Assembly: GCA_938017515.1 (NCBI GenBank)
Contig: CALIJJ010000209.1
Coordinates: 10,108 to 74,107, forward strand
DNA length: 64,000 bases
Reading direction: 5' to 3'
Source: an uncultured Pseudanabaenaceae cyanobacterium
GTDB lineage: Bacteria; Cyanobacteriota; Cyanobacteriia; PCC-9006; JAAUQQ01
The translations under genes and the position numbers were made by a program. Below, piece by piece: positions 6,068 through 24,972 of this stretch (position 1 is its first letter; each line of letters starts with the position of its first letter). The notes beneath the pieces are model-generated. The model was not told the DNA's origin. It ran no database searches and saw only the letters and a list, made by a program, of their open reading frames with translations.

Positions 6068-7783
6068 ATGCGCACCTGGGTTGGTCAGACACTCCAAGAC
6101 GGCAAATATAGCCTCGACTCCGTTCTGGGCGAAGGCGGCTTTGGCATCACATTCAAAGCCACCCATACCTATCTGAATCAAACCGTCGTTGTCAAAACCC
6201 TCAACCAGAAAATTCAGCAGTCCCAGGACTTCGACAAACTGCGCCAGCAGTTCCAAGCCGAGGCCCAACGCCTAGCGCTCTGCAGCCATCCCAATATCGT
6301 CCGCGTCAGCGATTTCTTTAGCCAGCGTGCTCCCGGCAGCGTCCTCACCTTGCCTTTCATGGTGATGGACTATATCCCCGGCAAATCCCTCGAAGAAATT
6401 GTCTTTCCCGATAACCCCCTCGCCGAAGATTTGGCGCTGCACTACACGCGCCAAATTGGCGAAGCACTGCACGTCGTCCATAAAAAGGGTCTCTTGCACC
6501 GCGATATCAAGCCTCAGAACATCATGCGGCGGGCAGGCACCCACGATGTCATCCTGATTGACTTTGGCATTGCCCGGGAGTACCAGCAGGGGCAGGTGGA
6601 TACCCATACGACCATCATTTCGCCGGGATATGCGCCGCTGGAGCAGTACATCGAAGCGGCGGAGCGGACGCCCGCTAGTGATGTCTATGGTTTGGCGGCG
6701 ACACTGTATGCGCTGGTGACGGCGACGGTGCCTATGGCATCTATTTTATTGCAGGCACAACCTTTGAAGGCGCCGCGATCGCTCAATTCCCGTATCTCTT
6801 CCCTCACCAACGCCGCCATCCTCAGCGGTATGGCCCTCGAAGTGGGTCGTCGTCCCACAAGCGTGCGCCGCTGGCTGGAGCAATTGCCGAAGGTCAAGCC
6901 TGACGTTCTCACCCAGCTGACCCAAGCCACACCCGCAGCATCACCGCCCTCCCAGGTCGCGACGGTTGCTGTGGCACCTTATGCCAAAGATACTGGCGTG
7001 GCATCGCCGGGGCAGCGGCCTGCTCAACCGCCGATTCCAACGCCGAAGACCCCGCTGTATGACCCCCAGGCCAATGTCGCGCCATTGCCGAAGACGCAGT
7101 TGCCGGAACCACGGCAGAAAAGACGAAGGACCCCCTGGAAGTTGCTGGGGTGTTTGGCCTTTCTAGGGGTGAGTATTGGGGCGATCGCCGCTATCTTTGC
7201 AGCCCTCTTTGTGTTGCCCAATCGCAGCCTGCCTGGTGTGAGTCGAGGTCCGGAGTCAGGCACAGTGGGCGATCGCCCAGGCAATAGCTCGAACAGCGGT
7301 TCAGCCAATTCGTCAGACCCTGGAGAGGATGGTCGTACAACTGACCGTAAACCGAACCGACCGAGCTTTGCCATAGACCAGCTGCCGCAGTTTTCGGTGG
7401 GTGCAACGGAGCAGCAGGTGGAAGCCAAACTGGGCCAGCCAGACCTCTCTCGCAAAGGCTTTTGGCCCAATACCCAGGCGGAACGCTATGACCTGATTCC
7501 GAATCGAGCGACGTTGGGATTCATTTACGATCGTGATACCCGTCTGCTGCGGCAGACCGAAGCAACGTTTGATGCGGCGGTGGATTTGCCGGTGATGGAG
7601 CGTGCCTTGGATGGACTGTTGGGAGAGCCTGCGACGACCATCGCCCAGGCAAAACTAGCCCAGGTCCGCGTTGGGCAGCTCAAGAGCTACAGCTTTGAGC
7701 AGGGGCCGATGAAAGGAACCTTTGAGTACAACGCAGCTAAGAATCGCGTTTACATGGCGGTTTGGGATGCCAAACTGCACTGA
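6068..7783 (+). CDS. Transmembrane serine/threonine protein kinase
   Basis: N-terminal Hanks kinase domain: Gly loop [17 protein letters not shown] lysine, [10 protein letters not shown] catalytic loop, DFG. Followed by a Pro-rich linker, one TM helix ([25 protein letters not shown]) and a roughly 170-aa extracytoplasmic C-terminal domain. Confidence 0.85.
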
Positions 7784-14416: not shown

Positions 14417-14887
14417 ATGGTTGGCCCCGTTCGTCCGAAATCCCAGTCTTGCCGCTTGATTCCCCACCTGGTCGTCCATGATGCGGAGATGGCGATCGCC
14501 TTCTACCGCAATGCCTTTGGCGCAGAAGAGGTCTATCGCATGCCTACGCCCGAGGGCAGCCAGTTGCTCCACGTCGAAATGCGGGTGGGTGAGCTCTCGA
14601 TCTACCTCTGCGATGAGTTTCCCGAAATGAGCACCCCGTCCCCCCATACGCTCCATGGCTCTCCGGTGACGCTGCATTTGGAGGTTGAGGACGTAGATAA
14701 TTGGTTTGAGCGAGCGATTCGTGCCGGGGCTGCTGTGCTCACCCCCCTGGAGAATATGTTTTGGGGACAGCGCTATGGCAAATTGGTCGATCCCTTTGGC
14801 CATCACTGGTCCATCGCCAGTGCTGTGGACTCTGTTGCCGATGGTGAGATGGGTGAACGTGTAGAACAAGAGATGTTTGCCCTATGA
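14417..14887 (+). CDS. VOC-family (glyoxalase/bleomycin-resistance/PhnB-like) protein
   Basis: Two betaalphabetabetabeta modules with metal-binding His/Glu (HLVVHD, HVEMRV, HHWS). SD gaggagg lies upstream. Confidence 0.75.
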   Translation: MVGPVRPKSQSCRLIPHLVVHDAEMAIAFYRNAFGAEEVYRMPTPEGSQLLHVEMRVGELSIYLCDEFPEMSTPSPHTLHGSPVTLHLEVEDVDNWFERAIRAGAAVLTPLENMFWGQRYGKLVDPFGHHWSIASAVDSVADGEMGERVEQEMFAL

Positions 14888-15918
14888 GCGATCGCGAGCA
14901 TGAGGCTGAACAGGACATTGATGATCCCGTGACAGATGACCCCATGACAGATGACCCCGTGACAGATGACCCGGTCATCAATGAAGAAGATGCTGCTGGG
15001 GTTGACCGTGCGACCATGAGCCCGGATTGGCGTCGTGTCGCACGCCAAGGGAAAAATGACTGGTGGCGCTATGTTCTGGGGATTTTTCTGTTCTTGTTCT
15101 GCTTTCTGCTCGTGGGCGGTATCGGTACAGGCATGGTGCTGTCGGTTAGCTTGCTTGCTGGTGGGGTGCCGGTGGAGGAGTTAACGGTGGCGCTGAAAAA
15201 TTTTTTGATGCGACCCTCGATCGCGGCGTTTGTTGCCAATAATATCTCGTTTGTTTTTGGTGTGTTGGGGCTCATGGTGGTGCTGCCTGTCCTGCATCGC
15301 CGTCCATTTCTGTCGTTATTGGGAGCACGCTTAGGATTCCGGTGGCCCCCTTTTCTTGCCTCCTTTGGGCTTTGGTTTGCCATGCTCTCGATCCTAGGCA
15401 TGCTGGGCTATGCTCTGGAGCCCAATGAATTTATTGTGACGTTTAATCCACGCCTGTGGACCAGTTTGCTGTTGGTGACGATTCCCCTCACCTTTATTCA
15501 GGTGTCCTGTGAAGAGCTATTTTTTCGAGGTTATCTCCTCCAGGGTCTAGGACTGCTGATTCGTTCAAAGATTGTGTTGGCTGTGCTCGGTGCGATTCCG
15601 TTTGCGGTGGTTCATTTCTGGAATCCTGAAATGGATCGAGGCTTGGGCTGGATGGCGTCTTATTATTTGGCTTTTGGCATTGTGGCCAACTGGCTGACGC
15701 TGAAGGAAAACCGATTGGAGCTCGCACTAGGGTTTCACTTAGCGATTAACTATTTTGGAATTCTGATTATCAGCAGTACTGATTCAGTGTTGCCTGCGCC
15801 ATCGATTTTTACGGTGGATGCGACGGGGAGTCCAATGTGGTCGGTGCTGGTGTTTTTGGTCGAATTTGTAATTTTCTATGGTCTCTTTTTCAAGTGGCGC
15901 AGGCGACGGCGTGCGTAA
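14884..15918 (+). CDS. CPBP-family intramembrane metalloprotease (CAAX protease / Abi-like)
   Basis: Polytopic membrane protein with the CPBP motifs EELFFRG and FxxxH. Overlaps the VOC gene by 4 nt (ATGA), so the two are likely co-transcribed. Has an acidic N-terminal DDPVT tandem repeat. Confidence 0.75.
   Translation: MSDREHEAEQDIDDPVTDDPMTDDPVTDDPVINEEDAAGVDRATMSPDWRRVARQGKNDWWRYVLGIFLFLFCFLLVGGIGTGMVLSVSLLAGGVPVEELTVALKNFLMRPSIAAFVANNISFVFGVLGLMVVLPVLHRRPFLSLLGARLGFRWPPFLASFGLWFAMLSILGMLGYALEPNEFIVTFNPRLWTSLLLVTIPLTFIQVSCEELFFRGYLLQGLGLLIRSKIVLAVLGAIPFAVVHFWNPEMDRGLGWMASYYLAFGIVANWLTLKENRLELALGFHLAINYFGILIISSTDSVLPAPSIFTVDATGSPMWSVLVFLVEFVIFYGLFFKWRRRRRA
14920..14980 (+). repeat. 15-bp tandem repeats (about 4 units) encoding DDPVT/DDPMT in the CPBP N-terminus
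   Basis: gatgatcccgtgaca, gatgaccccatgaca, gatgaccccgtgaca and gatgacccggtcatc. Confidence 0.75.
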
Positions 15919-16759: not shown

Positions 16760-18622
16760 CTAAACGTAGCTACTGGCTTGGCGGGTGAACATGTCAGCGT
16801 AGAGACCGTTTTTCTCCATGAGTTCGTCGTGGTTGCCTTCCTCCAAGACTTCTCCATTTTCTAGTACAACAATGCGATCGGCCATCTTGGCCAAGGCCAA
16901 TCGGTGACTCACCACCACCGCCATGCGATCGCGCGTAATCGACCGGAAAATGCTGTAAATTTCCTGCTCGTTTTTCGGGTCTAGCGCTGCTGTGGGTTCA
17001 TCGAAAATCAGGAGTTCAGCACTGTTGAGGCGGATGAGGGCTCGGGCGATCGCAACCCGTTGCCACTGCCCCCCGGACAAATCGACACCATTCTCCAACT
17101 CCTTCCCCAATGGTGTCTCCAGCCCCTGCTCAAACTCCCGCGTCAGCTTGCCAATGCCCGCTTCGTCCAGCACCCGTTGGATGGCATCATCCTCGTCACG
17201 CTTGGCTTGGAAGCCCCAGCCGACGTTGTCCCGCAAACTAGTGGGAAAGCGGGAATAGTCCTGCATGACGACGGCGATGCGATCGCGCAAAGCCTCCAAA
17301 TCCAGCTCCCGATAATCCTTGCCGTTCCAGTAAATCGAGCCCTGGGTGGGGTCATAGAGTCGGCACAGCAACTTTCCGAGGGTGGTTTTTCCCGCGCCAT
17401 TTTCACCAACCAAGGCCACCATCTCACCCGGCTTGATGCGGAAGTTAACGCCTTTCAGGATGGGGCGCTCACCGCCGGGATACTCGAACTTGAGATCCTG
17501 AACCTCAATGCCGGTCTGCTTGACCGGATGATGCTCTCCCCGAGCATCGCCTGTCTGCCAAATATTGGCAGCAAGAGACTTCGGTGGAGAAATGAGCTCG
17601 GGTTGTAAGTCAAACAGTTGGAAAATTGGTTTTGTTGCGAGGGTGACATCGTAGAGATTGCCGATGTTGCCGATGAGCGAGTAGAGGCTACGCTGCATCT
17701 GAGCCACAATGCCGGTATAAAGGGCGATATCCCCCAGGGTAAAACGCCCTTGAACAACGCCGATGACCACATAGACATAGACAAAAGAGCCGCCCACAGC
17801 GCCGATGAACGACCAGGCCCCCATGGCGATCGCACCTTGCTTGCGCACCTTGAGCATGGCAGTGAAGACTTGCTCAAAGAGCGATCGCCACCGTTCGATC
17901 ATGATGGGTTGTAGGGAAAACAGCCGAATCTCTTTCGCATACTTTTCGCTGCGGATTAGGCGGGCATAGATTTCCTTCTCTCGGGAGGCTGCGGCCTGGG
18001 TTTCTTCCACGCGCCAGCTCTTGCGACGGTGGTGAATCTCGACGTAGACCGAAGGAGCCGTGACGCTAATCAGCAGCAGCGGAATCCACCAGGCCAGTGC
18101 GGCAGATAGGGCGATGGAGGGGACAAAGCTGAACAGACCTCGCAGCGTTTGGGTAATCATGATTGAGAGCCGCTGCAACCGTTGCACACCGCGCTGGGTC
18201 AATTCGACGATGTTGAGTAGCTCGGGGCGTTCGAATAGGGCAATGTCGTTGAACGTGGCCAGTTTTTCGAGGACACGGCCTTGGACGACGCCTTGGACGC
18301 GATCGCGCAGGGCGGCAAACAGTAGAATGTCCACGGTCGAAGCAACTTCGATGAGCAATCGCAGCGCCAGGCTGCCTACAATGGCCCAGAGCAGGATTGA
18401 ATCCTGGTTCATCACCGTACGCCAGTCTTCTACGGGTCCACTTTTGAGCAGGGTGGAGAGTTCGTCGATGACGACTTTGCCGAGAAAGAGGGCGATCGCT
18501 GGACCCAGGCCGGTGCCAATATTGAGAAGACCAAGCTGGGCCAATTCCTTGGGGGCCGACTGCACCACCAGCAGTAGGCTGCGGCGCATGGCTTGGGCAG
18601 GCTTTAGATCTGGAATTTGCAT
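16760..18622 (-). CDS. ABC exporter, fused permease/ATPase (MsbA-like type I exporter)
   Basis: Six predicted TM helices then an NBD (Walker A GENGAGKTT, signature LSGGQWQRVAIARAL, Walker B LLIFDEPTAALD). The track ORF runs to 18913, but that 97-aa extension is non-protein-like and overlaps a good + strand ORF. The start is taken at MQIPDL (18622). MRRSL (18589) is an alternative and aligns best with MsbA N-termini. Confidence 0.85.
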   Translation of the reverse strand: MQIPDLKPAQAMRRSLLLVVQSAPKELAQLGLLNIGTGLGPAIALFLGKVVIDELSTLLKSGPVEDWRTVMNQDSILLWAIVGSLALRLLIEVASTVDILLFAALRDRVQGVVQGRVLEKLATFNDIALFERPELLNIVELTQRGVQRLQRLSIMITQTLRGLFSFVPSIALSAALAWWIPLLLISVTAPSVYVEIHHRRKSWRVEETQAAASREKEIYARLIRSEKYAKEIRLFSLQPIMIERWRSLFEQVFTAMLKVRKQGAIAMGAWSFIGAVGGSFVYVYVVIGVVQGRFTLGDIALYTGIVAQMQRSLYSLIGNIGNLYDVTLATKPIFQLFDLQPELISPPKSLAANIWQTGDARGEHHPVKQTGIEVQDLKFEYPGGERPILKGVNFRIKPGEMVALVGENGAGKTTLGKLLCRLYDPTQGSIYWNGKDYRELDLEALRDRIAVVMQDYSRFPTSLRDNVGWGFQAKRDEDDAIQRVLDEAGIGKLTREFEQGLETPLGKELENGVDLSGGQWQRVAIARALIRLNSAELLIFDEPTAALDPKNEQEIYSIFRSITRDRMAVVVSHRLALAKMADRIVVLENGEVLEEGNHDELMEKNGLYADMFTRQASSYV

Positions 18623-18631
18623 AGGCAGCAG

Positions 18632-19585
18632 ATGAAAATTATCCTCAGTCGAAAAGGATTTGACTCCGGGACAGGCAAAGTCCCCAGTCCCATTCTGCCA
18701 ATGGCTGTCCCAACTGGTGTTACCCGTTCGGGTGAGAAAATGGCTCAATTGCCCGATGTATCTATGTCGGGACAGCTCTGCTCCCTCGCGATTCCAGAGA
18801 CCCAGACTGGAAAACATGGTCTGTGCTACCGAGATATCATCGGGGAACCCAAGGTTGCCAAACTCGTCCAGAATTTGACAGGGCAAAAACTCAAAGGCAG
18901 CCACTGCGTGCATCTTGATCCAGACTTAGCGGCTGGCCACCGACCTCGTCTGCCCGGTTGGCGACCCTGTTTTGGCCAAGCCGGAGCCGCAGAGCGACAT
19001 CTCCAAAATCAGGGGGTCGGGCCGGAGGATATTTTTTTGTTTTTTGGGTGGTTTCGGCAAGTGGAGTGGGTGCGGCGGCGCTATCGTTACGTCAAGCATG
19101 CGCCGGATTTACATGTCATCTTTGGTTGGTTGCAGGTGGCAGAGCGGTTGGCAGTGCAGGAGTCGGGCAGACTTCCGCACTGGGCGCGATCGCATCCCCA
19201 CGCCCAGGGCAAACCTTACGCTTCAGCGGATTCACTTTATCTGGCCACCCAGACCCTAAGACTCTCGGGAGAGCCTGGCATCATACCAGGCGGAGGCTGC
19301 TTCCCCGCGTTCCATCCCGCCCTCTGCCTGACCGATCGCGCGGGCCACAAACGGAGTCAGTGGCGCTTGCCTGCCTGGCTTTATCCTTTTCATCCCGGCG
19401 CAGAACGCACGCCGCTCAGTTACCACGGACGATCGGATCGATGGCAACTGAGGGATGATGCCACACTGTTGCAAAGTGTGGGTCGAGGCCAAGAATTTGT
19501 TTTGGATTGCGATGAGTATCCTGAGGCGATCGCCTGGCTAGCTCAACTGTTTAGCCTAGCCGATGGCTCATCAAATAAAATTTAG
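18632..19585 (+). CDS. Hypothetical protein (317 aa), function unknown
   Basis: Long ORF with protein-like composition and a conserved-looking N-terminus (MKIILSRKGFDSGTGKVPSPILP) and the motif IFLFFGWF. I have a vague and unreliable recollection of this N-terminal motif from 'Nmad3'-type proteins. The start lies 10 bp from the divergent ABC start. Confidence 0.5.
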   Translation: MKIILSRKGFDSGTGKVPSPILPMAVPTGVTRSGEKMAQLPDVSMSGQLCSLAIPETQTGKHGLCYRDIIGEPKVAKLVQNLTGQKLKGSHCVHLDPDLAAGHRPRLPGWRPCFGQAGAAERHLQNQGVGPEDIFLFFGWFRQVEWVRRRYRYVKHAPDLHVIFGWLQVAERLAVQESGRLPHWARSHPHAQGKPYASADSLYLATQTLRLSGEPGIIPGGGCFPAFHPALCLTDRAGHKRSQWRLPAWLYPFHPGAERTPLSYHGRSDRWQLRDDATLLQSVGRGQEFVLDCDEYPEAIAWLAQLFSLADGSSNKI

Positions 19586-20149
19586 AATCTCTGCTTTATA
19601 AAAACTATTTTGGAGATTTAATTCTAGCTGGAACTGCCTAAGCATTGATTAGAAATAACTGTGCTGAAGTCGATTTTCTAAATCTAAATGTTGATCAATC
19701 AAACATCCATAAAAATTGCCCCAGGCTTCTTGCCCAGGGCTAAAAACGTGATAGAAAGTGCTTAAGATCAATCAAACAACTACAGGTATCTTACTAAGGG
19801 TTTGCAGAACAGTCGTAGAACGTGATTAACACCATGGTCTCTCAGGAGACTCTGAGCTTAGGGCTTCACCCTTTATAGTCCTTTCACCGACAATCAACGA
19901 AACAATCGAACCGAAATGAAACAATCGAACCAAATCAAACCTAACGAACTTGAACAATAGGGTGAAAGAAGAGGGAATGAAGGAGCCTCATTCTGTTAGT
20001 GTTTCAGCAGTTCTAGGAACTGGTTTGAGCCTTGACGGGAGACGCGGGTCGTTAGCTCTAGTCCGGTTTTGTATCTCTCTTGCGTCTGAATACAAACTAA
20101 CACCTTCAAGGAGAGGTAAAAGCCTGTTTAAGGAATTGTAAAGAGTGGG

Positions 20150-20962
20150 TTAGTGGTGACTCCGACTGAATTTACGAAAGTCTTCATCTCGCTGGCTGAG
20201 CTTGACCCATTTTGTTCCTTGAGCTAGCAGACGCCCGACGAGTTTTTCGCAGGCTGGACGTTCTGTGGCGTAGTGGCCTGCATCAATCAGGATGAGATTG
20301 CGATCGCGGGCTTCCTGGAACTGGTGAAACTTGCAGTCCGAGGTTAAGTAAGCTTCCGCGCCGGTTTTGCACACGGCACCGATGTAGCTCGCACCCGAGC
20401 CCCCCAGGACTGCGACGCGCGTTATGGGTCGCTGGAGGTCCGCTTCGGGGGAATAGATGAGGTCCGGCGGATGGAGCTGGTCGTGGATCTGGTTGAGCAG
20501 CGTTTCCAGGGTCATGGCCTGGGGCAACTGACCCACGCGGCCATAGCCGAGACCGTCTTGGGTGGGTTCTACGGGCTCTGGGTTTTGCAGATCTAAAAGC
20601 TGGCTGAGGACATCAGCGGTGCCATCCGTGACCTGGTCAAAGTTGGTATGGGCTGTGTAGACGCCGATGCCATGCTGGATGGCAAGACGGACCATATCGC
20701 CGATGGGGTCGCCTTTGCGCACAGAGGTCAGCTTGCCAAAGATTAAGGGGTGATGGGCAAAGATGAGATTGATGGGTTCTCCCTGCTGTTTTAGGGCGAT
20801 CGCCTCTTCCATTACAGCCAGGGTTGGCGTCAGGCACACCAGAACGCCAGCGGTTTCATCGAGAATACCGGGTTCAATTTGCCAGCCACAGTTGTCCCAT
20901 TTTTCTTGCCAATGGGGTGGTGCCCAGGTTTCAAACTGTTCAATGAGGGTGGAAATGTTCAT
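20150..20962 (-). CDS. Nif3-family dinuclear-metal-centre protein (YqfO/YbgI-like)
   Basis: N-terminus MNISTLIEQFETWAPPHWQEKWDNCGW, plus conserved His/Glu metal ligands throughout. The track ORF begins at 21034 and the ATG at 20962 fits family alignment. Confidence 0.8.
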   Translation of the reverse strand: MNISTLIEQFETWAPPHWQEKWDNCGWQIEPGILDETAGVLVCLTPTLAVMEEAIALKQQGEPINLIFAHHPLIFGKLTSVRKGDPIGDMVRLAIQHGIGVYTAHTNFDQVTDGTADVLSQLLDLQNPEPVEPTQDGLGYGRVGQLPQAMTLETLLNQIHDQLHPPDLIYSPEADLQRPITRVAVLGGSGASYIGAVCKTGAEAYLTSDCKFHQFQEARDRNLILIDAGHYATERPACEKLVGRLLAQGTKWVKLSQRDEDFRKFSRSHH

Positions 20963-21196
20963 GGCTGTACTCCTTGCGTCATCCTCGGCTAAGCGTTTTC
21001 TGGTCAGCGTTTTGGGGTCAGTATTCTCTGGCAAGCTCCTCTGGATTTAATTATTCACCAGGTCTTACTCACCGAGGGTTAATAAAACGGGGAAAACCGT
21101 AAAGCTCCAGCGCAATTTGTGGGCGATCGCCTGAATCCCCAGAGATTGAACGCTCCTGAGCTGAAGCCCAAGTCAGTGTCCTACGGTTTCAGCAGC

Positions 21197-22399
21197 ATGA
21201 CTCTCTCGATTTTTAGCTCGGTTCCCCGTTTCACGAAAGTACTGTTGCTGACTGGCGTGCTTTCCGTGGGTTGGGGAGGTGCGGCAAAGGCCGATGAGCT
21301 GCTGCGGACCCAGGTGCTGATGCGCGAGAGACCGACCGAGCAAACTCTTGTCGGCCAAGCAACCGTGGCCCAGGATGTTCTTGCCCAGGATATTCTTGCC
21401 CAAGATGTTGTTGCTCAGCAACTGTTAGCCGACTTACCGAACAATAGTCGTGCGCTAGAAGCGCAGACTGCCCTGACTGAGCCTCTGCGTAGTCATGTCC
21501 ACCAGGGGAAGCAGTTATTACGCGCTAGAAAGTATGCAGCAGCAATTGCAAAGTATGACCAAGCCCTAGAGCTCCAGGCAGAGATCCCTGAGGCCTGGTA
21601 CGGTCGCATGTTGGCCCAAAAAGCTCTGGGACAGTCCAAGGAAGCTGTGTTTAGCTACTACGCCTATGCTGAAGCATCGCGAATTGTCGGAGATTTGGAC
21701 ACCGCGCTGGCGGGTTTCGAATGGTTTTTAGCGCGCAGACCGGACTTTTTTGAAGCGGCCTTGGGCAAAAGCATCACCCTGGAGCAGATGGGCAATCCAG
21801 CGGCAGCCCTGCGTAGCTTTGCGATGACGATTGAGATCGATCCCCAGGATCCACGGGGCTGGGAGTACCAGGGTGATCTGATGGCGCGTCTGGAGGACTA
21901 CGAGCGTGCGGCCCAGAGCTATGAGCAGTGGGTGGCGTTGGCCCCCGAGAGTCCTGAGGCCCTGTGGAGCCATGGTCATGTGTTGATTCAGCTGAATCGC
22001 TATGAAGCGGCTCTGGAGCGCTATGTTCGTTTGGCGCAACTTCAGCCTGAGGAGGCGGAACCCCAGCAGCGCCAGGGCTGGATTTTGCTTCAGTTAGGTC
22101 GGTTTCGGGAAGCGGTTGTCCGTTATGATGCGGCGATCGCCTTCGATCCCTCCAAGGCTGCGAACTGGCAGGGGAAGGGCTATGCCCTGGCTCAGCTGAA
22201 CCAGTATGATACTGCCTTAGAAAATCTGACGCAGGCGGTCAAGCTCAATCCCCAGGACGCCTGGAGTTGGCAGCTGCGGGCAGAGATGCTCGAACAATTG
22301 GGCCGTCGTGAGGAGGCCAAGGAGAGTCTGCGCCAGGTGGATATTCTGCGGGAAGTTCAGGTCTTGTCGCGCTCCGAAGATGGGCGATCTTTGGCCTGA
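21197..22399 (+). CDS. TPR-repeat protein with N-terminal signal peptide
   Basis: Signal-like N-terminus (MTLSIFSSVPRFTKVLLLTGVLSVGWGGAAKA). Carries an AQDVLAQDILAQDVVAQ repeat, then at least 8 TPR units (W-LG-Y-A-F-P-type 34-mers). Confidence 0.75.
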   Translation: MTLSIFSSVPRFTKVLLLTGVLSVGWGGAAKADELLRTQVLMRERPTEQTLVGQATVAQDVLAQDILAQDVVAQQLLADLPNNSRALEAQTALTEPLRSHVHQGKQLLRARKYAAAIAKYDQALELQAEIPEAWYGRMLAQKALGQSKEAVFSYYAYAEASRIVGDLDTALAGFEWFLARRPDFFEAALGKSITLEQMGNPAAALRSFAMTIEIDPQDPRGWEYQGDLMARLEDYERAAQSYEQWVALAPESPEALWSHGHVLIQLNRYEAALERYVRLAQLQPEEAEPQQRQGWILLQLGRFREAVVRYDAAIAFDPSKAANWQGKGYALAQLNQYDTALENLTQAVKLNPQDAWSWQLRAEMLEQLGRREEAKESLRQVDILREVQVLSRSEDGRSLA

Positions 22400-22596
22400 T
22401 AAAACCGAGCAGAGCTACGGGTCCAGGTGGTGGCAAAGGCAATAAAAGGAACTAGGGTAAACACACCACCTGCCACCAACGCGTGGTCTTGCAACCAAGG
22501 GCTGGACATCATCACACCAATACCCAGCCCACAATAGATCAACCCAGCCACGGGAATGCCGATGATCAGCGCTGCCATCTTGTCATTGTCGTCCAT
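22357..22596 (-). CDS. Small two-TM membrane protein, possible
   Basis: 79-aa ORF with two hydrophobic helices. Overlaps the TPR gene 3' end by 43 nt. No homology recognised. Confidence 0.3.
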   Translation of the reverse strand: MDDNDKMAALIIGIPVAGLIYCGLGIGVMMSSPWLQDHALVAGGVFTLVPFIAFATTWTRSSARFYQAKDRPSSERDKT

Positions 22597-22696
22597 GGAT
22601 TAGCCTCGACGTTTCCCACCTTCATCTTAAGGGCCGAGCTTCAGTCTGTTCTTTACAATAGGGGGGCTATAGAACTGTTCTTATCAAAACTGTCTG

Positions 22697-23152
22697 ATGA
22701 ATGCCATGGCCGATACTGCTGCGCATACCCCTCCTCAAAAGCCATTTCTGGCCACCGTTCGTGAGTTAGTGAGAGCCTACCAAGCCTTCTCTTCGTACTC
22801 AGAGCATTTTGTGCGGCAGTATGAGCTGACTCCGGCTCAATTTGATGTCATTGCAACCTTGGGCCATACCCAGGGCATGAGTATGGGAGAGATTGGCGAG
22901 AAAACGCTGATTACGAAAGGGACGCTGACGGGAGTGGTCGATCGCCTCAAGAAAAAAGATCTCGTGACCCGAGATATTCCCCCCGAAAATCGACGCTCCG
23001 TGATCGTCAAACTGACGTCCCAGGGGGAAGAACTCTTCCAGCAGGTGTTTCCGGCCCACCTTGCGGATATGGAAACCCACTTTGAAGGCTTTGATGCTTC
23101 GGAGCTGGAGCTGATGCGTGTGATGCTGAATCGATTGCGCAAGGCCTTTTAG
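22697..23152 (+). CDS. MarR-family transcriptional regulator
   Basis: Winged HTH (LTPAQFDVIATLGHTQGMSMGEIGEKTLITKGTLTGVVDRLKKKDLVTR). Contains no cysteine. Confidence 0.85.
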   Translation: MNAMADTAAHTPPQKPFLATVRELVRAYQAFSSYSEHFVRQYELTPAQFDVIATLGHTQGMSMGEIGEKTLITKGTLTGVVDRLKKKDLVTRDIPPENRRSVIVKLTSQGEELFQQVFPAHLADMETHFEGFDASELELMRVMLNRLRKAF

Positions 23153-23283
23153 CCGATCGCAATCGCTCTGCGGGGCTCGCTCCTGCCTTGTACGAGGGAC
23201 TGGGACTACGCGATAGACTGCGCGACGGATTGCTCGACCCGTTTTTTCATGGCATGGGTTGCGGTTTTGAAAGACCAATGCTA

Positions 23284-23329
23284 ATTTCGACATCAGATAG
23301 TTCTAGTTAAGACTATCTGATATCGAAAT
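23284..23329. promoter_or_regulatory. 18-bp inverted repeat with 10-bp spacer, candidate operator upstream of the CDGSH/NDH-2 operon
   Basis: atttcgacatcagatagt ... actatctgatatcgaaat (17/18 complementary). Sits 30 nt upstream of the ATG at 23360, after the MarR gene. Confidence 0.45.
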
Positions 23330-23359
23330 GAATTTAGCCGATTTTGAAGGAGGATATCG

Positions 23360-23536
23360 ATGGCTCAGCAACCCAAACCCCTCGTGCTGGCCCTAGAGGC
23401 TGGAACGCACTGGCTCTGTACCTGCGGGCAGTCTACGAATGCCCCTTATTGCGATGGCAGCCATAAGGGGACAGCTTTTCAGCCCCTCGCACTGGAGTTA
23501 GATACGCCCAAGGAAGTCATTATCACTGCGCCATAA
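23360..23536 (+). CDS. CDGSH iron-sulfur domain protein (58 aa)
   Basis: Sub-threshold ORF MAQQPKPLVLALEAGTHWLCTCGQSTNAPYCDGSHKGTAFQPL... with the C-x-C-x(n)-CDGSH 2Fe-2S motif. SD gaaggagga lies upstream. Its stop overlaps the next start (TAATG). Confidence 0.7.
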   Translation: MAQQPKPLVLALEAGTHWLCTCGQSTNAPYCDGSHKGTAFQPLALELDTPKEVIITAP

Positions 23537-24972
23537 TGACCGTTCCTACCAAGGTAATGAAGCATGAAAGACTGCAACTCCCGCGAGTTGTCATCTTGGG
23601 TGCTGGTTTTGCAGGGCTTGAGGTTGCGCAACAGCTCGCCCAAAAAGCGTTATGCGTCACCCTGATTGATCGCCAAGATCATCACACCTTTCAGCCCTTG
23701 CTGCACCAAGTGGTCACTGCTGAGTTAGAGGCTCAGCAGATTTGTTATCCGATCCGTTCAGCCCTGCGCCGGGCTAGGAATGTCCGATTTGTTCAGGCAG
23801 AAGTCCATCATATTCAGACTCGGCAGCGCCAAGTCAAGACGTCTGCTGGAGGGTTTGACTATGATTTTCTCGTCATTGCGACAGGGGCTACGTCTCACTT
23901 AGAGATACTGCCTGGGTCTCCCAGCGCGGCGGCTCCCAATTCTGTGTTTGGGCTCAAAACAATTGGGGATGCGATCGCGCTCCGCCATCACCTCGCCAAG
24001 GTCTTAGCACGGGCTCATCGGCCGATTAGCGCTGCTCCTGACCTATTCGCGCCTACTCAATTTGAGAGTGTCCAATCTGCTTCTACTCAAGCTGCCCATA
24101 CAACAGTAGAGTCGATGGCTGACCAGACCGTTGTCATTGTTGGTGGCGGGGCCACGGGCGTCGAATTGGCCGGAGCAATCGCGGGATGGTGTAAGCGATC
24201 GCGGCATAACGCAGCTGCATGCTTGCCCCACCCAGCCAAGAAACTCGTGCTGCTCCATTCCAGGGACAGGCTTCTACCTGGCTTTCGTCCGCGTTTGCAG
24301 CGGTATGCCCTGAAGCAGCTCCAGGCCATGGGCGTTGATGTCCATTGTCTGAAACGTGTGCAGCTTCTCTCCTCCCAAGGTGTTCAGCTATCAGATGGTC
24401 AATTGATCCCGACCAAAACGGTGATTTGGACCACAGGAGTGCGGGGAAATCCACCGGCTTGGAAGGGAGAGGGTCCTACAACACATCGACTGCCGGTGCG
24501 CCCCACCCTCCAGTTATTGGAGGATGACCACATCTACGCTGTAGGGGACGTAGCTGCGGGTACCTCTGAAGCCGAGCCCTGGCCGATGCTGGCTTCCGTC
24601 GCTGTTCAGCAGGGGCGTTTCGCAGCACGCAATATTCGGCGTCAGGCCCAGGGTCAACGTCTGAAACCATTTCGAATGCGCCATTGGGGGGCCATGGCCA
24701 TACTGGGTCGCCATGCTGCGGTTGTCCAACTTGGACCCTTGACCCTCACGGGGGTCGTGGCTTGGCTGATCTGGTTGGCTGTGCATCTCATGTTGTTGCG
24801 AGGGATGCGCCAGCGCCTGACAACACTGCTGCGCTGGAGTGAATCGTACCGGTATCGTTCTCCCCGAGTTCGTTCGTCCGTCTCACCGAGCATGACCGCC
24901 TCCATGAGCATGACCACCTCAGCGAGCAGCCGCCCACAGCCTTGTTCCCATCCCATTTTTTGCGCCAAATAG
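23536..24972 (+). CDS. FAD-dependent NAD(P)H:quinone oxidoreductase (type II NADH dehydrogenase-like)
   Basis: Two Rossmann dinucleotide motifs (VVILGAGFAGLE and VVIVGGGATGVELAGA). The overall NDH-2 / pyridine nucleotide-disulfide oxidoreductase layout is present. Confidence 0.8.
   Translation: MTVPTKVMKHERLQLPRVVILGAGFAGLEVAQQLAQKALCVTLIDRQDHHTFQPLLHQVVTAELEAQQICYPIRSALRRARNVRFVQAEVHHIQTRQRQVKTSAGGFDYDFLVIATGATSHLEILPGSPSAAAPNSVFGLKTIGDAIALRHHLAKVLARAHRPISAAPDLFAPTQFESVQSASTQAAHTTVESMADQTVVIVGGGATGVELAGAIAGWCKRSRHNAAACLPHPAKKLVLLHSRDRLLPGFRPRLQRYALKQLQAMGVDVHCLKRVQLLSSQGVQLSDGQLIPTKTVIWTTGVRGNPPAWKGEGPTTHRLPVRPTLQLLEDDHIYAVGDVAAGTSEAEPWPMLASVAVQQGRFAARNIRRQAQGQRLKPFRMRHWGAMAILGRHAAVVQLGPLTLTGVVAWLIWLAVHLMLLRGMRQRLTTLLRWSESYRYRSPRVRSSVSPSMTASMSMTTSASSRPQPCSHPIFCAK

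What the first reader, a model, noticed from the sequence alone, without database searches (positions are those of the whole stretch)
18589..19585. Unknown 317-aa ORF starting 10 bp from the divergent start of an ABC exporter
The + strand ORF 18632-19585 has good protein-like composition and conserved-looking motifs (MKIILSRKGFDSGTG, IFLFFGWF), but no family I can assign with confidence. Its ATG lies 10 nt from the most upstream plausible ABC start (18622), or 43 nt from the MRRSL start (18589), on the opposite strand. The divergent promoters must therefore lie inside coding sequence, or one transcript is leaderless. The track's 97-aa N-terminal extension of the ABC gene (to 18913) is shadow sequence across this ORF. 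The ORF is a single orphan gene, followed by an AT-rich non-coding tract. I have a faint memory of the N-terminal motif from 'Nmad3' nucleotide-modification-associated proteins, and this must be treated as unverified.
Basis: partly seen in the sequence, partly recalled or inferred. Interest (0 to 1): 0.55.

Follow-up and report, generated by a model that had tools for sequence, protein, structure and literature searches.

The report
Solo Nmad3-family gene, head-to-head with ABC exporter
The ORF is a real gene for an ordinary, stand-alone member of the large, named but biochemically uncharacterised Nmad3 family; its predicted core resembles domains that recognise modified DNA/RNA bases, and its start codon lies only 9 bases from that of a divergent ABC exporter gene.

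Summary
ORF 18632-19585 (+) is a real 317-aa gene. The ABC exporter starts at 18622 (-), so the two ATGs are separated by 9 nt. The 97-aa upstream "extension" of the ABC gene is shadow sequence.

The protein matches Pfam PF18754 (Nmad3) at 233 bits against a cut-off of 27. It has more than 6,700 homologues in many phyla.

No relative has a solved structure. PADLOC, PHROGs, NCBIfam and 50,697 phage genomes gave no hit.

The only recurrent partner is Nmad2. It is adjacent in 13 of 80 genomes, and fusions exist. It is absent from this window, whose neighbours are housekeeping genes. ABC and Uma2 co-occurrence is not conserved.

Verdict: a new member of a known, uncharacterised kind, of modest interest.

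In passing: the "AT-rich non-coding tract" holds a conserved, structured element of about 400 nt on the minus strand, downstream of NIF3. It has no Rfam match and is a candidate new cyanobacterial sRNA.

The parts
18632..19585 (+). Nmad3-family gene (317 aa plus stop)
   Evidence: Pfam PF18754 at 233.3 bits, E 4.5e-69. The N-terminus aligns with 120 homologues. dN/dS is about 0.15 against L082. An independent gene call agrees.
18701..18766 (+). Lineage-specific 22-residue insertion (residues 24-45), probably a flexible loop
   Evidence: These columns are gaps in more than 80% of 131 family representatives. The insertion is present only here and in P0002. It is the lowest-confidence part of the model, with block pLDDT 56-76.
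18911..18925 (+). Invariant HLDPD motif (H94, D96, P97, D98), a candidate catalytic or metal-binding site
   Evidence: H94, D96, P97 and D98 are 96-100% conserved, and L95 is 90% conserved, in 131 representatives clustered at 50% identity. They are invariant in the 120 close homologues. The catalytic role is inferred.
18905..19300 (+). Approximate extent of the predicted PUA-like (EVE/YTH/ASCH-type) beta-barrel core, about residues 92-223, to which the N-terminal strand (residues 2-7) probably contributes
19193..19201 (+). Conserved HPH motif (H188, P189, H190)
   Evidence: H188 99%, P189 90% and H190 100% conserved.
19484..19498 (+). Conserved RGQEF motif (R285, G286, Q287, E288, F289)
   Evidence: G286, Q287 and E288 are 100% conserved and F289 99% in representatives. 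R285 is 90% or more conserved among the 120 close homologues.
16760..18622 (-). Divergent neighbour: fused TMD-NBD ABC exporter, 620 aa, MsbA-like but below every equivalog cut-off
   Evidence: PF00005 at 115 bits. The best NCBIfam match is MsbA_lipidA at 267 bits against a cut-off of 602. The start at 18622 is supported by 4 of 4 synonymous changes in codons 1-11 and by an independent gene call.
18623..18631 (.). 9-nt spacer (aggcagcag) between the two divergent start codons
   Evidence: Read directly from the sequence. The relative L082 has 6 nt, aggcag.
18623..18913 (-). Shadow ORF: the 97-codon upstream extension of the ABC frame, which is not translated
   Evidence: 3 synonymous against 49 non-synonymous codon changes in this frame, compared with 22 and 30 in the Nmad3 frame. 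It overlaps the homologue-supported Nmad3 N-terminus.
18638..18643 (-). Possible -10 box (GATAAT on the minus strand) for the ABC gene, lying inside Nmad3 codons 3-4. Speculative.
   Evidence: Read from the sequence only. It ends 15 nt upstream of the ABC ATG and is identical in L082, but it is also constrained by the conserved Ile-Ile codons. The formal promoter scan found no site.

Best explanation
The ORF encodes a stand-alone ("solo") member of the Nmad3 family, Pfam PF18754 "nucleotide modification associated domain 3".

Shown:
- Family membership.
- Purifying selection on the gene.
- A confident single-domain-like AlphaFold model. Its core is most similar to PUA-like barrels of the EVE/YTH/ASCH type. 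Those are the folds that hold a flipped-out modified base (m6A, 5mC/5hmC) in readers such as YTH proteins, THYN1, McrB-N and VcaM4I.
- A set of family-invariant polar residues: R7, K8, D11, H94-x-D96-P-D98, R106, Q116, H123, D133, H161, H188-P-H190, H265, Q287-E288.

Inferred:
- Such a dense invariant His/Asp/Glu set is typical of a catalytic, probably metal-dependent, site rather than a passive reader.
- The protein therefore most likely binds a modified nucleobase, either in a free nucleotide or nucleoside or flipped out of DNA or RNA, in the barrel pocket and chemically processes it (hydrolysis or further modification).
- In about one genome in six it works with Nmad2, either in a translationally coupled operon or as a fusion. 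Here, as in its whole clade (Chloroflexota, cyanobacteria and allied lineages), it acts alone in a housekeeping neighbourhood.

Gene arrangement: the gene is arranged head-to-head with an unrelated ABC exporter, with 9 nt between the ATGs. Each gene's promoter must therefore lie in the other's coding sequence, or the leaders are only a few nucleotides long. This is an inference and no TSS data exist.

My confidence by step: family membership about 0.98; PUA-like core about 0.75; enzyme acting on a modified base or nucleotide about 0.4.
For: Family and selection:
- Pfam 233 bits against a cut-off of 27, covering the full model, split by the insertion.
- More than 6,738 homologues and 1,938 clusters at 50% identity.
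- Invariant motifs.
- dN/dS about 0.15.

Structure:
- AF2 pLDDT 90.8, pTM 0.90.
- Weak Foldseek hits point to the same proteins: THYN1, PH1033, McrB-N.

Nmad2 link:
- Adjacent in 13 of 80 loci, in both gene orders, with overlapping stop and start codons.
- Fusions P0141, P0146 and P0250.
- A Burkholderia plasmid operon.
- Nmad2 is a component of the experimentally validated E. coli defence system "NTTI", alongside a 5-hmdU DNA kinase (PMC13092281).

Solo status here:
- No Nmad2 in the 64-kb window by tblastn.
- Neighbours within about 10 kb are LysR, GST, hydrolase, CAAX protease, Uma2, ABC, NIF3, TPR, MarR and NDH-2.
- The window's clade in the tree is entirely solo.
Against: - No biochemical or genetic data exist for any Nmad3 protein. 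Literature searches gave nothing.
- I could not inspect coordinates, so it is not shown that the invariant residues line the barrel pocket.
- The "nucleotide modification" label is guilt by association from other genomes. No such genes are near this copy.
- The window protein departs from two nearly invariant positions: P53A (Pro in 99%) and G132E (Gly in 88%).
Confidence: 0.6

Rival explanations
1. Nmad3 is an anti-phage or anti-mobile-element immunity protein. It would use the EVE/YTH-like barrel to sense hypermodified foreign DNA, as McrB-N and VcaM4I do, with the rest of the protein acting as effector.
For: - The fold resembles readers of modification-dependent restriction enzymes.
- Distribution is patchy and the tree does not follow taxonomy.
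- This copy diverges faster than its flanks from the nearest relative: dN 0.215 against 0.04-0.05, and 4-fold sites differ at 53% against 33-34%.
- Some homologues sit next to defence-type or mobile-element genes: MmeI, PIN, caspase and CHAT in L085; AbiJ-NTD4 and recombinases in C. butyricum; HNH and Dcm in B. toyonensis; ArdC, metallophosphoesterase and HD in Burkholderia.
- Its partner family Nmad2 is part of a validated defence system.
Against: - No PADLOC model matches.
- No recognisable nuclease or other effector domain.
- This copy and other cyanobacterial copies lie among housekeeping genes.
- About 50% identity is retained across phyla, which is more typical of a metabolic enzyme.
- No homologue was found in 50,697 phage genomes, so there is no sign of a phage counter-copy.
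Confidence: 0.25
2. Nmad3 is a non-catalytic reader or regulator. It would bind modified RNA or DNA, as YTH and EVE proteins do, without chemistry.
For: The closest structural matches are non-enzymatic readers: YTH, THYN1 and PH1033.
Against:
- The protein is twice the size of a reader domain.
Confidence: 0.1
3. The ORF is not a gene. The 717-aa ABC reading frame is the real product and the + strand ORF is its shadow.
For: One automatic annotation of a 99.5%-identical contig (L088) called a 717-aa ABC gene and only a 182-aa Nmad3 fragment.
Against: - Thousands of homologues align to the + strand ORF from its first Met.
- Substitutions in the overlap are 3 synonymous and 49 non-synonymous in the ABC-extension frame.
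- Synonymous-only change begins exactly at the 18622 ATG.
- An identical contig was annotated as 620 aa plus 317 aa.
Confidence: 0.01

Closest known systems
Pfam PF18754, Nmad3 (nucleotide modification associated domain 3)
   Same: Full-length match far above the gathering threshold. All family-invariant motifs are present. Length and architecture are typical apart from one loop insertion.
   Different: This is a solo copy in a housekeeping neighbourhood. It has a 22-residue lineage-specific insertion and two unusual substitutions (P53A, G132E). The family has no experimentally known function. From my own memory, the name comes from comparative genomics by the Aravind group in 2013; that paper is not in the library.
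EVE / YTH / ASCH PUA-like modified-base-binding domains (PH1033, THYN1, Mmi1/YTHDC1, McrB N-terminal domain, VcaM4I)
   Different: - No detectable sequence similarity, and Foldseek is not significant.
- Nmad3 is about twice as long, with an insertion of about 80 residues after the first strand and a C-terminal extension of about 100 residues.
- It carries invariant His/Asp/Glu motifs that I do not recall from reader domains.
- It is not fused to a nuclease, GTPase or other effector.
ASCH-fold enzymes such as E. coli YqfB (N4-acetylcytidine amidohydrolase)
Pfam PF18753, Nmad2, and the Nmad2-Nmad3 two-gene module
   Same: Nmad2 is the only recurrent genomic partner of Nmad3. The two occur as adjacent, often overlapping genes in 13 of 80 loci, in fusions in both orders, and in a plasmid operon. 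Nmad2 occurs in the validated defence system "NTTI" (PMC13092281).
   Different: No Nmad2 is present in this 64-kb window. Homology between Nmad2 and Nmad3 was tested and not demonstrated: hhalign probability is below 1%.

Membership tests
Nmad3 (Pfam PF18754) | Score above the curated gathering threshold over the whole model | tested here: met
   233.3 bits against a cut-off of 27. There are two matched stretches; the best one covers model positions 23-247 of 247 at residues 46-292, and the other stretch lies before the 22-residue insertion.
Nmad3 (Pfam PF18754) | Family-invariant motifs: N-terminal SRKGFD, HLDPD, FGQ..AE.HL, D.F.F.GWF, H..FGW, HPH, YH, GQEF | tested here: met
   All are present. 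The only departures at positions at least 80% conserved are P53A and G132E.
Nmad3 (Pfam PF18754) | Genomic association with nucleotide-modification genes or Nmad2, the context that gave the family its name | tested here: not met
   No Nmad2 in the window by tblastn. Neighbours within about 10 kb are unrelated housekeeping genes. This is a property of context, not of the protein. 67 of 80 homologous loci are also solo.
PUA-like superfamily (EVE/YTH/ASCH) | Pseudo-barrel fold superposable on solved EVE, YTH or ASCH domains | tested here: met
PUA-like superfamily (EVE/YTH/ASCH) | Sequence-profile similarity to the Pfam EVE, ASCH or YTH models | tested here: not met
   None of 120 family members hits any PUA-clan model, even at E up to 5. 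A PDB profile search gave no relevant hit.
PUA-like superfamily (EVE/YTH/ASCH) | Aromatic cage or pocket that holds the modified base | not testable with these tools
   Model coordinates could not be inspected. Many invariant Trp and Phe residues exist (W110, F135, F141, W166, W244, W302), but their position in 3D is unknown to me.
Known anti-phage defence systems (PADLOC-DB v2) | Match to a defence-system protein model, or location in a defence island | tested here: not met
   No PADLOC hit for the window protein or for Nmad2-Nmad3 fusions. No defence genes are in the neighbourhood except a Uma2-family gene.
Phage-encoded base-hypermodification pathways | Homologues encoded in phage genomes | tested here: not met
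   tblastn against 50,697 phage records gave no match. There was no PHROG hit and no significant BFVD structural match.

The most novel reading that the evidence does not exclude
Nmad3 is a previously unrecognised class of stand-alone enzyme built on an EVE/YTH-type modified-base-binding barrel with a His/Asp metal centre. It would be, for example, a hydrolase or glycosylase that removes or remodels a modified base in DNA, RNA or the nucleotide pool. Solo copies like this one would carry the whole activity, and Nmad2 would be an optional accessory subunit. Its faster divergence than the flanking genes would then reflect an arms race with modified-base phages.
Probability: 0.3. Interest if true: 0.6.

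Novelty: new member of a known kind. Interest (0 to 1): 0.3.

Why it matters
For annotation:
- The locus shows how a long shadow ORF can displace a real gene. Nearly identical DNA was annotated in two incompatible ways in public assemblies.
- The correct model is a 620-aa ABC exporter and a 317-aa Nmad3 gene, with start codons 9 nt apart.

For biology:
- Nmad3 is a large, widely distributed family (about 1,900 clusters at 50% identity, many phyla) with no known activity.
- Three results give concrete handles for the first biochemical experiments. The core looks like a modified-base-binding barrel. The protein carries an invariant His/Asp/Glu set. Its only conserved partner is Nmad2, which belongs to a validated defence system.
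- This particular copy adds little beyond being a clean solo example in a cyanobacterium.

Tried and rejected
Searches that gave nothing:
- NCBIfam, PADLOC and PHROGs: no hit for the protein.
- Sequence-profile search of PDB: only chance hits.
- Foldseek against PDB and BFVD: nothing significant. The afdb50 library was unavailable.
- Pfam scan of all 120 members at E up to 5: no recurrent second family and no link to the PUA clan.
- Sigma-70 promoter scan of 18300-20300: no sites.
- Literature searches for Nmad3, PF18754 and the Nmad names: nothing on Nmad3. The paper I believe introduced the names is not held.

Hypotheses tested and rejected or left open:
- Homology between Nmad2 and Nmad3. 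Four motifs occur in the same order, but hhalign probability is below 1%. Inconclusive, not claimed.
- ABC-exporter co-occurrence. Apart from the window and its identical contig, only the immediate relative L082 shares the ABC-Nmad3-NIF3 order. Other ABC hits in the 80 loci are generic ATPases at arbitrary distances. Rejected.
- Uma2 co-occurrence. Found in 1 of 80 loci. Rejected.
- A third conserved gene in the Nmad2-Nmad3 loci. None found; the other "clusters" were high-GC shadow ORFs.
- Nmad3 as a pseudogene in the strain of contig L088. Rejected: I found no difference in the overlap, and the single difference inside the gene (19379 C to T) lies within the ORF that was still called, so it is not a stop. 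The short gene call is an artefact of gene calling.

For the downstream tract:
- Rfam at gathering and relaxed thresholds: no hit.
- Thermodynamic z-scores: no signal.
- Coding test of small ORFs: negative.
- Two metagenome pattern scans: nothing, then one chance match.
Full report

Yes. The + strand ORF runs from ATG 18632 to the stop at 19585 and encodes 317 aa beginning MKIILSRKGFDSGTG. The ORF listing extends it to a TTG at 18617. However, the 120 closest homologues all align from the same Met-Lys-Ile-Ile, so the ATG is the start.

An independent gene caller on an identical public contig (L081, Logan ERR9287624) gives the same model: ABC 620 aa, Nmad3 317 aa, NIF3 270 aa.

The nearest relative is contig L082, whose Nmad3 protein is 70% identical. 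It keeps the order ABC-Nmad3-NIF3, which lets the reading frames be tested by substitution pattern:
- Between the MRRSL Met (18589) and the upstream ATG (18622), 4 of 11 codons differ, and all 4 changes are synonymous in the ABC frame. The ABC protein therefore starts at 18622 (MQIPDLKPAQAMRRSL...).
- In the overlap 18632-18913, changed codons are 22 synonymous and 30 non-synonymous in the Nmad3 frame, but 3 and 49 in the ABC-extension frame.

The 97-codon extension is therefore shadow sequence. Its ATG (18913-18911, minus strand) is simply the complement of the CAT codon for the invariant His94 of Nmad3.

The two real start codons are separated by 9 nt (18623-18631, aggcagcag), and by 6 nt in L082.

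A 99.5%-identical contig (L088) was automatically annotated the wrong way, as a 717-aa ABC gene plus a 182-aa Nmad3 fragment. I found no sequence difference in the overlap.

**2. What is it?**

The protein matches Pfam PF18754 (Nmad3) at 233 bits, E 4.5e-69, against a cut-off of 27. UniRef already uses the name "Nmad3 family putative nucleot..." for a cyanobacterial homologue (name cut off in the output).

The family is large:
- More than 6,738 proteins in the word-indexed search.
- 1,938 clusters at 50% identity, 513 of them with E up to 1e-30.
- At least 555 hits among species-representative genomes. These include Chloroflexota, Acidobacteriota, cyanobacteria, Marinobacter, Halomonas, actinobacteria, Bacillus, planctomycetes and others.

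The gene is under purifying selection, with dN/dS about 0.15 against L082.

This copy has two peculiarities:
- A 22-residue insertion (residues 24-45), shared only with P0002 and modelled with low confidence.
- Two substitutions at nearly invariant positions, P53A and G132E.

By NIF3 homologue names, the organism is a Leptolyngbya-type filamentous cyanobacterium.

**3. What is known about the family?**

Essentially nothing experimental.
- Literature searches for Nmad3, PF18754 and the domain name returned no paper on Nmad3. The comparative-genomics paper that I believe coined the names is not in the library.
- NCBIfam, PADLOC and PHROGs have no model that matches.
- No solved structure is related by sequence.
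- No homologue occurs in 50,697 phage genomes. Only 6 of 72,556 plasmids carry one, all of them replicons of 0.36-3.2 Mb.

**4. Structure**

AlphaFold2 with a 120-sequence alignment gives a confident model: pLDDT 90.8, pTM 0.90.

- YTH: Mmi1, YTHDC1, YTHDC2, YTHDF1, CPSF30.
- The McrB N-terminal domain bound to m5C DNA.
- The EVE-HNH enzyme VcaM4I.
- ASCH.

In these hits 97-139 residues are aligned. For the small single-domain targets this is most of the target domain.

Foldseek finds the same proteins (THYN1, PH1033, McrB-N) among its top-ranked hits, but not significantly. No sequence-profile link to EVE, ASCH or YTH exists. I therefore rate the fold assignment at about 0.75.

The sequence logic agrees with the fold. 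An N-terminal strand (KIILSR) is followed later by FGQAGAAERHL...GxxDIFLFFGWF...HVIFGWLQV. From my memory of EVE domains, this parallels their W.GVRNYQARN...GD.V.FYHS...ivGia.V pattern.

Nmad3 is about twice the size of an EVE domain. It has an insertion of about 80 residues after strand 1 and a C-terminal extension of about 100 residues.

**5. Conserved residues**

Across 131 representatives (50%-identity clusters), the most conserved polar positions are H94, D96, D98, R106, Q116, H123, D133, H161, H188, H190, H265, Q287 and E288. Each is at least 93% conserved. The N-terminal S6, R7, K8, G9 and D11 are also conserved; their 87% figure probably reflects truncated entries, since they are 90-100% conserved among the 120 full-length close homologues. 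Many Trp and Phe residues are conserved as well.

Five His, three Asp and a Glu in short motifs (HLDPD, HPH, GQEF) look like a catalytic, probably metal-binding, site. That they sit in the barrel pocket is an inference I could not check, because coordinates are not exposed.

**6. Genomic context**

In 80 homologous loci (flanks of up to 10 kb), no neighbour is conserved across phyla except Nmad2 (PF18753).
- Nmad2 is immediately adjacent in 13 of 80 loci. It lies upstream in 11 and downstream in 2, often with overlapping stop and start codons.
- Fusions exist in both orders: P0141, P0146 and P0250.
- A Burkholderia plasmid carries metallophosphoesterase, Nmad3, Nmad2, a hypothetical gene and an HD-domain gene in a row.
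- Nmad2 is a component of the validated E. coli defence system "NTTI" of the DefensePredictor study, together with a 5-hmdU DNA kinase (PMC13092281).

In a neighbour-joining tree, the Nmad2-linked Nmad3 genes form three groups among solo lineages. The window's clade (cyanobacteria, Chloroflexota and allied lineages) is entirely solo. The tree does not follow taxonomy.

The window has no Nmad2 in 64 kb. Its neighbours are housekeeping genes. Two other cyanobacterial copies also sit among unrelated housekeeping genes.

Some homologues lie in defence-like or mobile contexts:
- MmeI, PIN, caspase and CHAT.
- AbiJ-NTD4 and recombinases, and HNH and Dcm.

Orthologous ABC neighbours exist only in L082, and Uma2 is found in 1 of 80 loci.

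**7. How it most likely works**

The best-supported reading has three steps.
- Shown by prediction: a PUA-like barrel that captures a modified base.
- Inferred: an invariant His/Asp/Glu site that does chemistry on it.
- Shown by context: the protein acts alone here and with Nmad2 elsewhere.

Whether the cellular role is immunity against modified-base phages or nucleotide and RNA housekeeping is open. The defence reading has three points in its favour: the fold relatives, the Nmad2 link, and the fact that this gene has diverged from L082 much more than its flanks. The figures are dN 0.215 against 0.04-0.05, and 4-fold sites differing at 53% against 33-34%, which is above the roughly 38% difference seen in the unconstrained part of the spacer. 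Against it are the housekeeping context, the absence of an effector domain and the high cross-phylum conservation.

**8. The head-to-head arrangement**

With 9 nt (6 nt in L082) between divergent ATGs, there is no room for promoters or ordinary leaders. Each promoter must lie in the partner's coding sequence, giving overlapping antisense 5' ends, or the mRNAs are leaderless or have leaders of only a few nucleotides.

The consensus scan finds no sigma-70-type site. By eye, GATAAT (18643-18638, minus strand, inside the Ile-Ile codons of Nmad3) ends 15 nt upstream of the ABC ATG and is conserved in L082. It is also constrained by coding, so this is only a lead. TSS mapping is needed.

There is no evidence that the two genes are functionally linked.

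**9. Side finding: the "AT-rich non-coding tract"**

Between the window and L082 the first 120 nt or so after the Nmad3 stop are only about 62% identical. From 19705 to 20150 identity is 75-98% per 60-nt window (mostly 80-87%). The stretch 19721-19780 is 98% identical and holds a minus-strand intrinsic terminator.

No small ORF shows coding-type conservation, and 1-nt indels occur.

The same element of about 360-400 nt follows NIF3 orthologues in three further cyanobacterial contigs:
- L087.
- L086, which carries two tandem copies, the second just upstream of rpmI-rplT.
- L092.

In every contig examined the next downstream gene is different. L091 and L093 carry a different sequence after NIF3.

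A six-sequence alignment supports several helices:
- A helix AGACGC/GCGUCU with two fully compensated positions and no broken pair.
- A GUCUC-CUGA-GAGAC hairpin.
- A terminator with compensatory changes.

Overall, 93.8% of cells are paired, against 32-45% when partners are slid. Seven pairs have double-sided changes, against 0-4 in the slid controls.

A -10-like hexamer (TAGTTT, TAACTT or TAGATT) precedes a conserved AUUCAG by about 7 nt. This is my reading of the sequences.

Rfam 15 has no match in any of the loci. The single-sequence folding energy is unremarkable.

This is a candidate new cyanobacterial sRNA or structured 3'UTR. The evidence is preliminary, with six copies, two of them nearly identical.

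**10. Verdict**

The finding is real but largely explained. It is a correctly delimited, solo member of a known, named and uncharacterised family, arranged unusually tightly against an unrelated ABC exporter. Novelty: a new member of a known kind. Interest is modest (0.3). What remains interesting is the unknown chemistry of the whole Nmad3 family rather than anything particular to this locus.

Noticed in passing
window 19707-20104 (minus strand); also L082:2324-2715(-), L087:3288-3671(+), L086:5877-6237(+) and 6462-6839(+), L092:3447-3804(+): A conserved non-coding element of about 360-400 nt lies directly downstream of the NIF3 gene and ends in an intrinsic terminator. It is found in five Leptolyngbya-type cyanobacterial contigs, and the next gene differs in each. 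Three helices show compensatory changes: 93.8% of cells are paired against 32-45% in slid controls, and 7 pairs have double-sided changes. It has no Rfam 15 match and no coding signature. It is a candidate new sRNA or structured 3'UTR.
   Followed up: partly
window 18632-19582 compared with flanks 17384-18622 and 20153-20962: Against the nearest relative (L082), the Nmad3 gene is much more diverged than its flanks. dN is 0.215 and dS 1.39, against 0.048 and 0.65 (ABC) and 0.040 and 0.585 (NIF3). Four-fold sites differ at 53%, against 33-34% in the flanks. GC3 is 0.55, against 0.64-0.66. Synonymous divergence exceeds that of the unconstrained spacer, which suggests allele replacement by recombination or relaxed synonymous constraint.
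   Followed up: partly
L088 (Logan ERR9287622), equivalent to window about 17150-23950: A 99.5%-identical strain contig was auto-annotated with a 717-aa ABC gene and a truncated 182-aa Nmad3 gene. An identical contig (L081/L089) got 620 aa and 317 aa. I found no sequence difference in the overlap. This is an example of a shadow ORF displacing a real gene in public annotation. L088 also carries a 15-nt length difference somewhere right of window 21200, which I did not locate.
   Followed up: partly
L095 (Burkholderia sp. MBR-1 plasmid pMBR01, NZ_CP053612.1 141052-147206): The gene row is metallophosphoesterase, Nmad3, Nmad2 (its start overlaps the Nmad3 stop), a hypothetical gene and an HD-domain protein. 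An ArdC gene lies two genes upstream of the metallophosphoesterase. Nmad2 together with a metallophosphatase is reminiscent of the domain list for validated systems in DefensePredictor Fig. 3C.
   Followed up: partly
L086:5877-6839: Two tandem, diverged copies of the NIF3-downstream RNA-like element occur in one 6.1-Mb cyanobacterial genome. The second copy ends about 65 nt before the rpmI (L35) start. A leader or attenuator role for rpmI-rplT cannot be excluded.
   Followed up: no
window 14884-15918 (+): A CAAX-protease-like (Rce1-like) membrane protein has an N-terminal acidic tandem peptide repeat, DDPVTDDPMTDDPVTDDPV.
   Followed up: no
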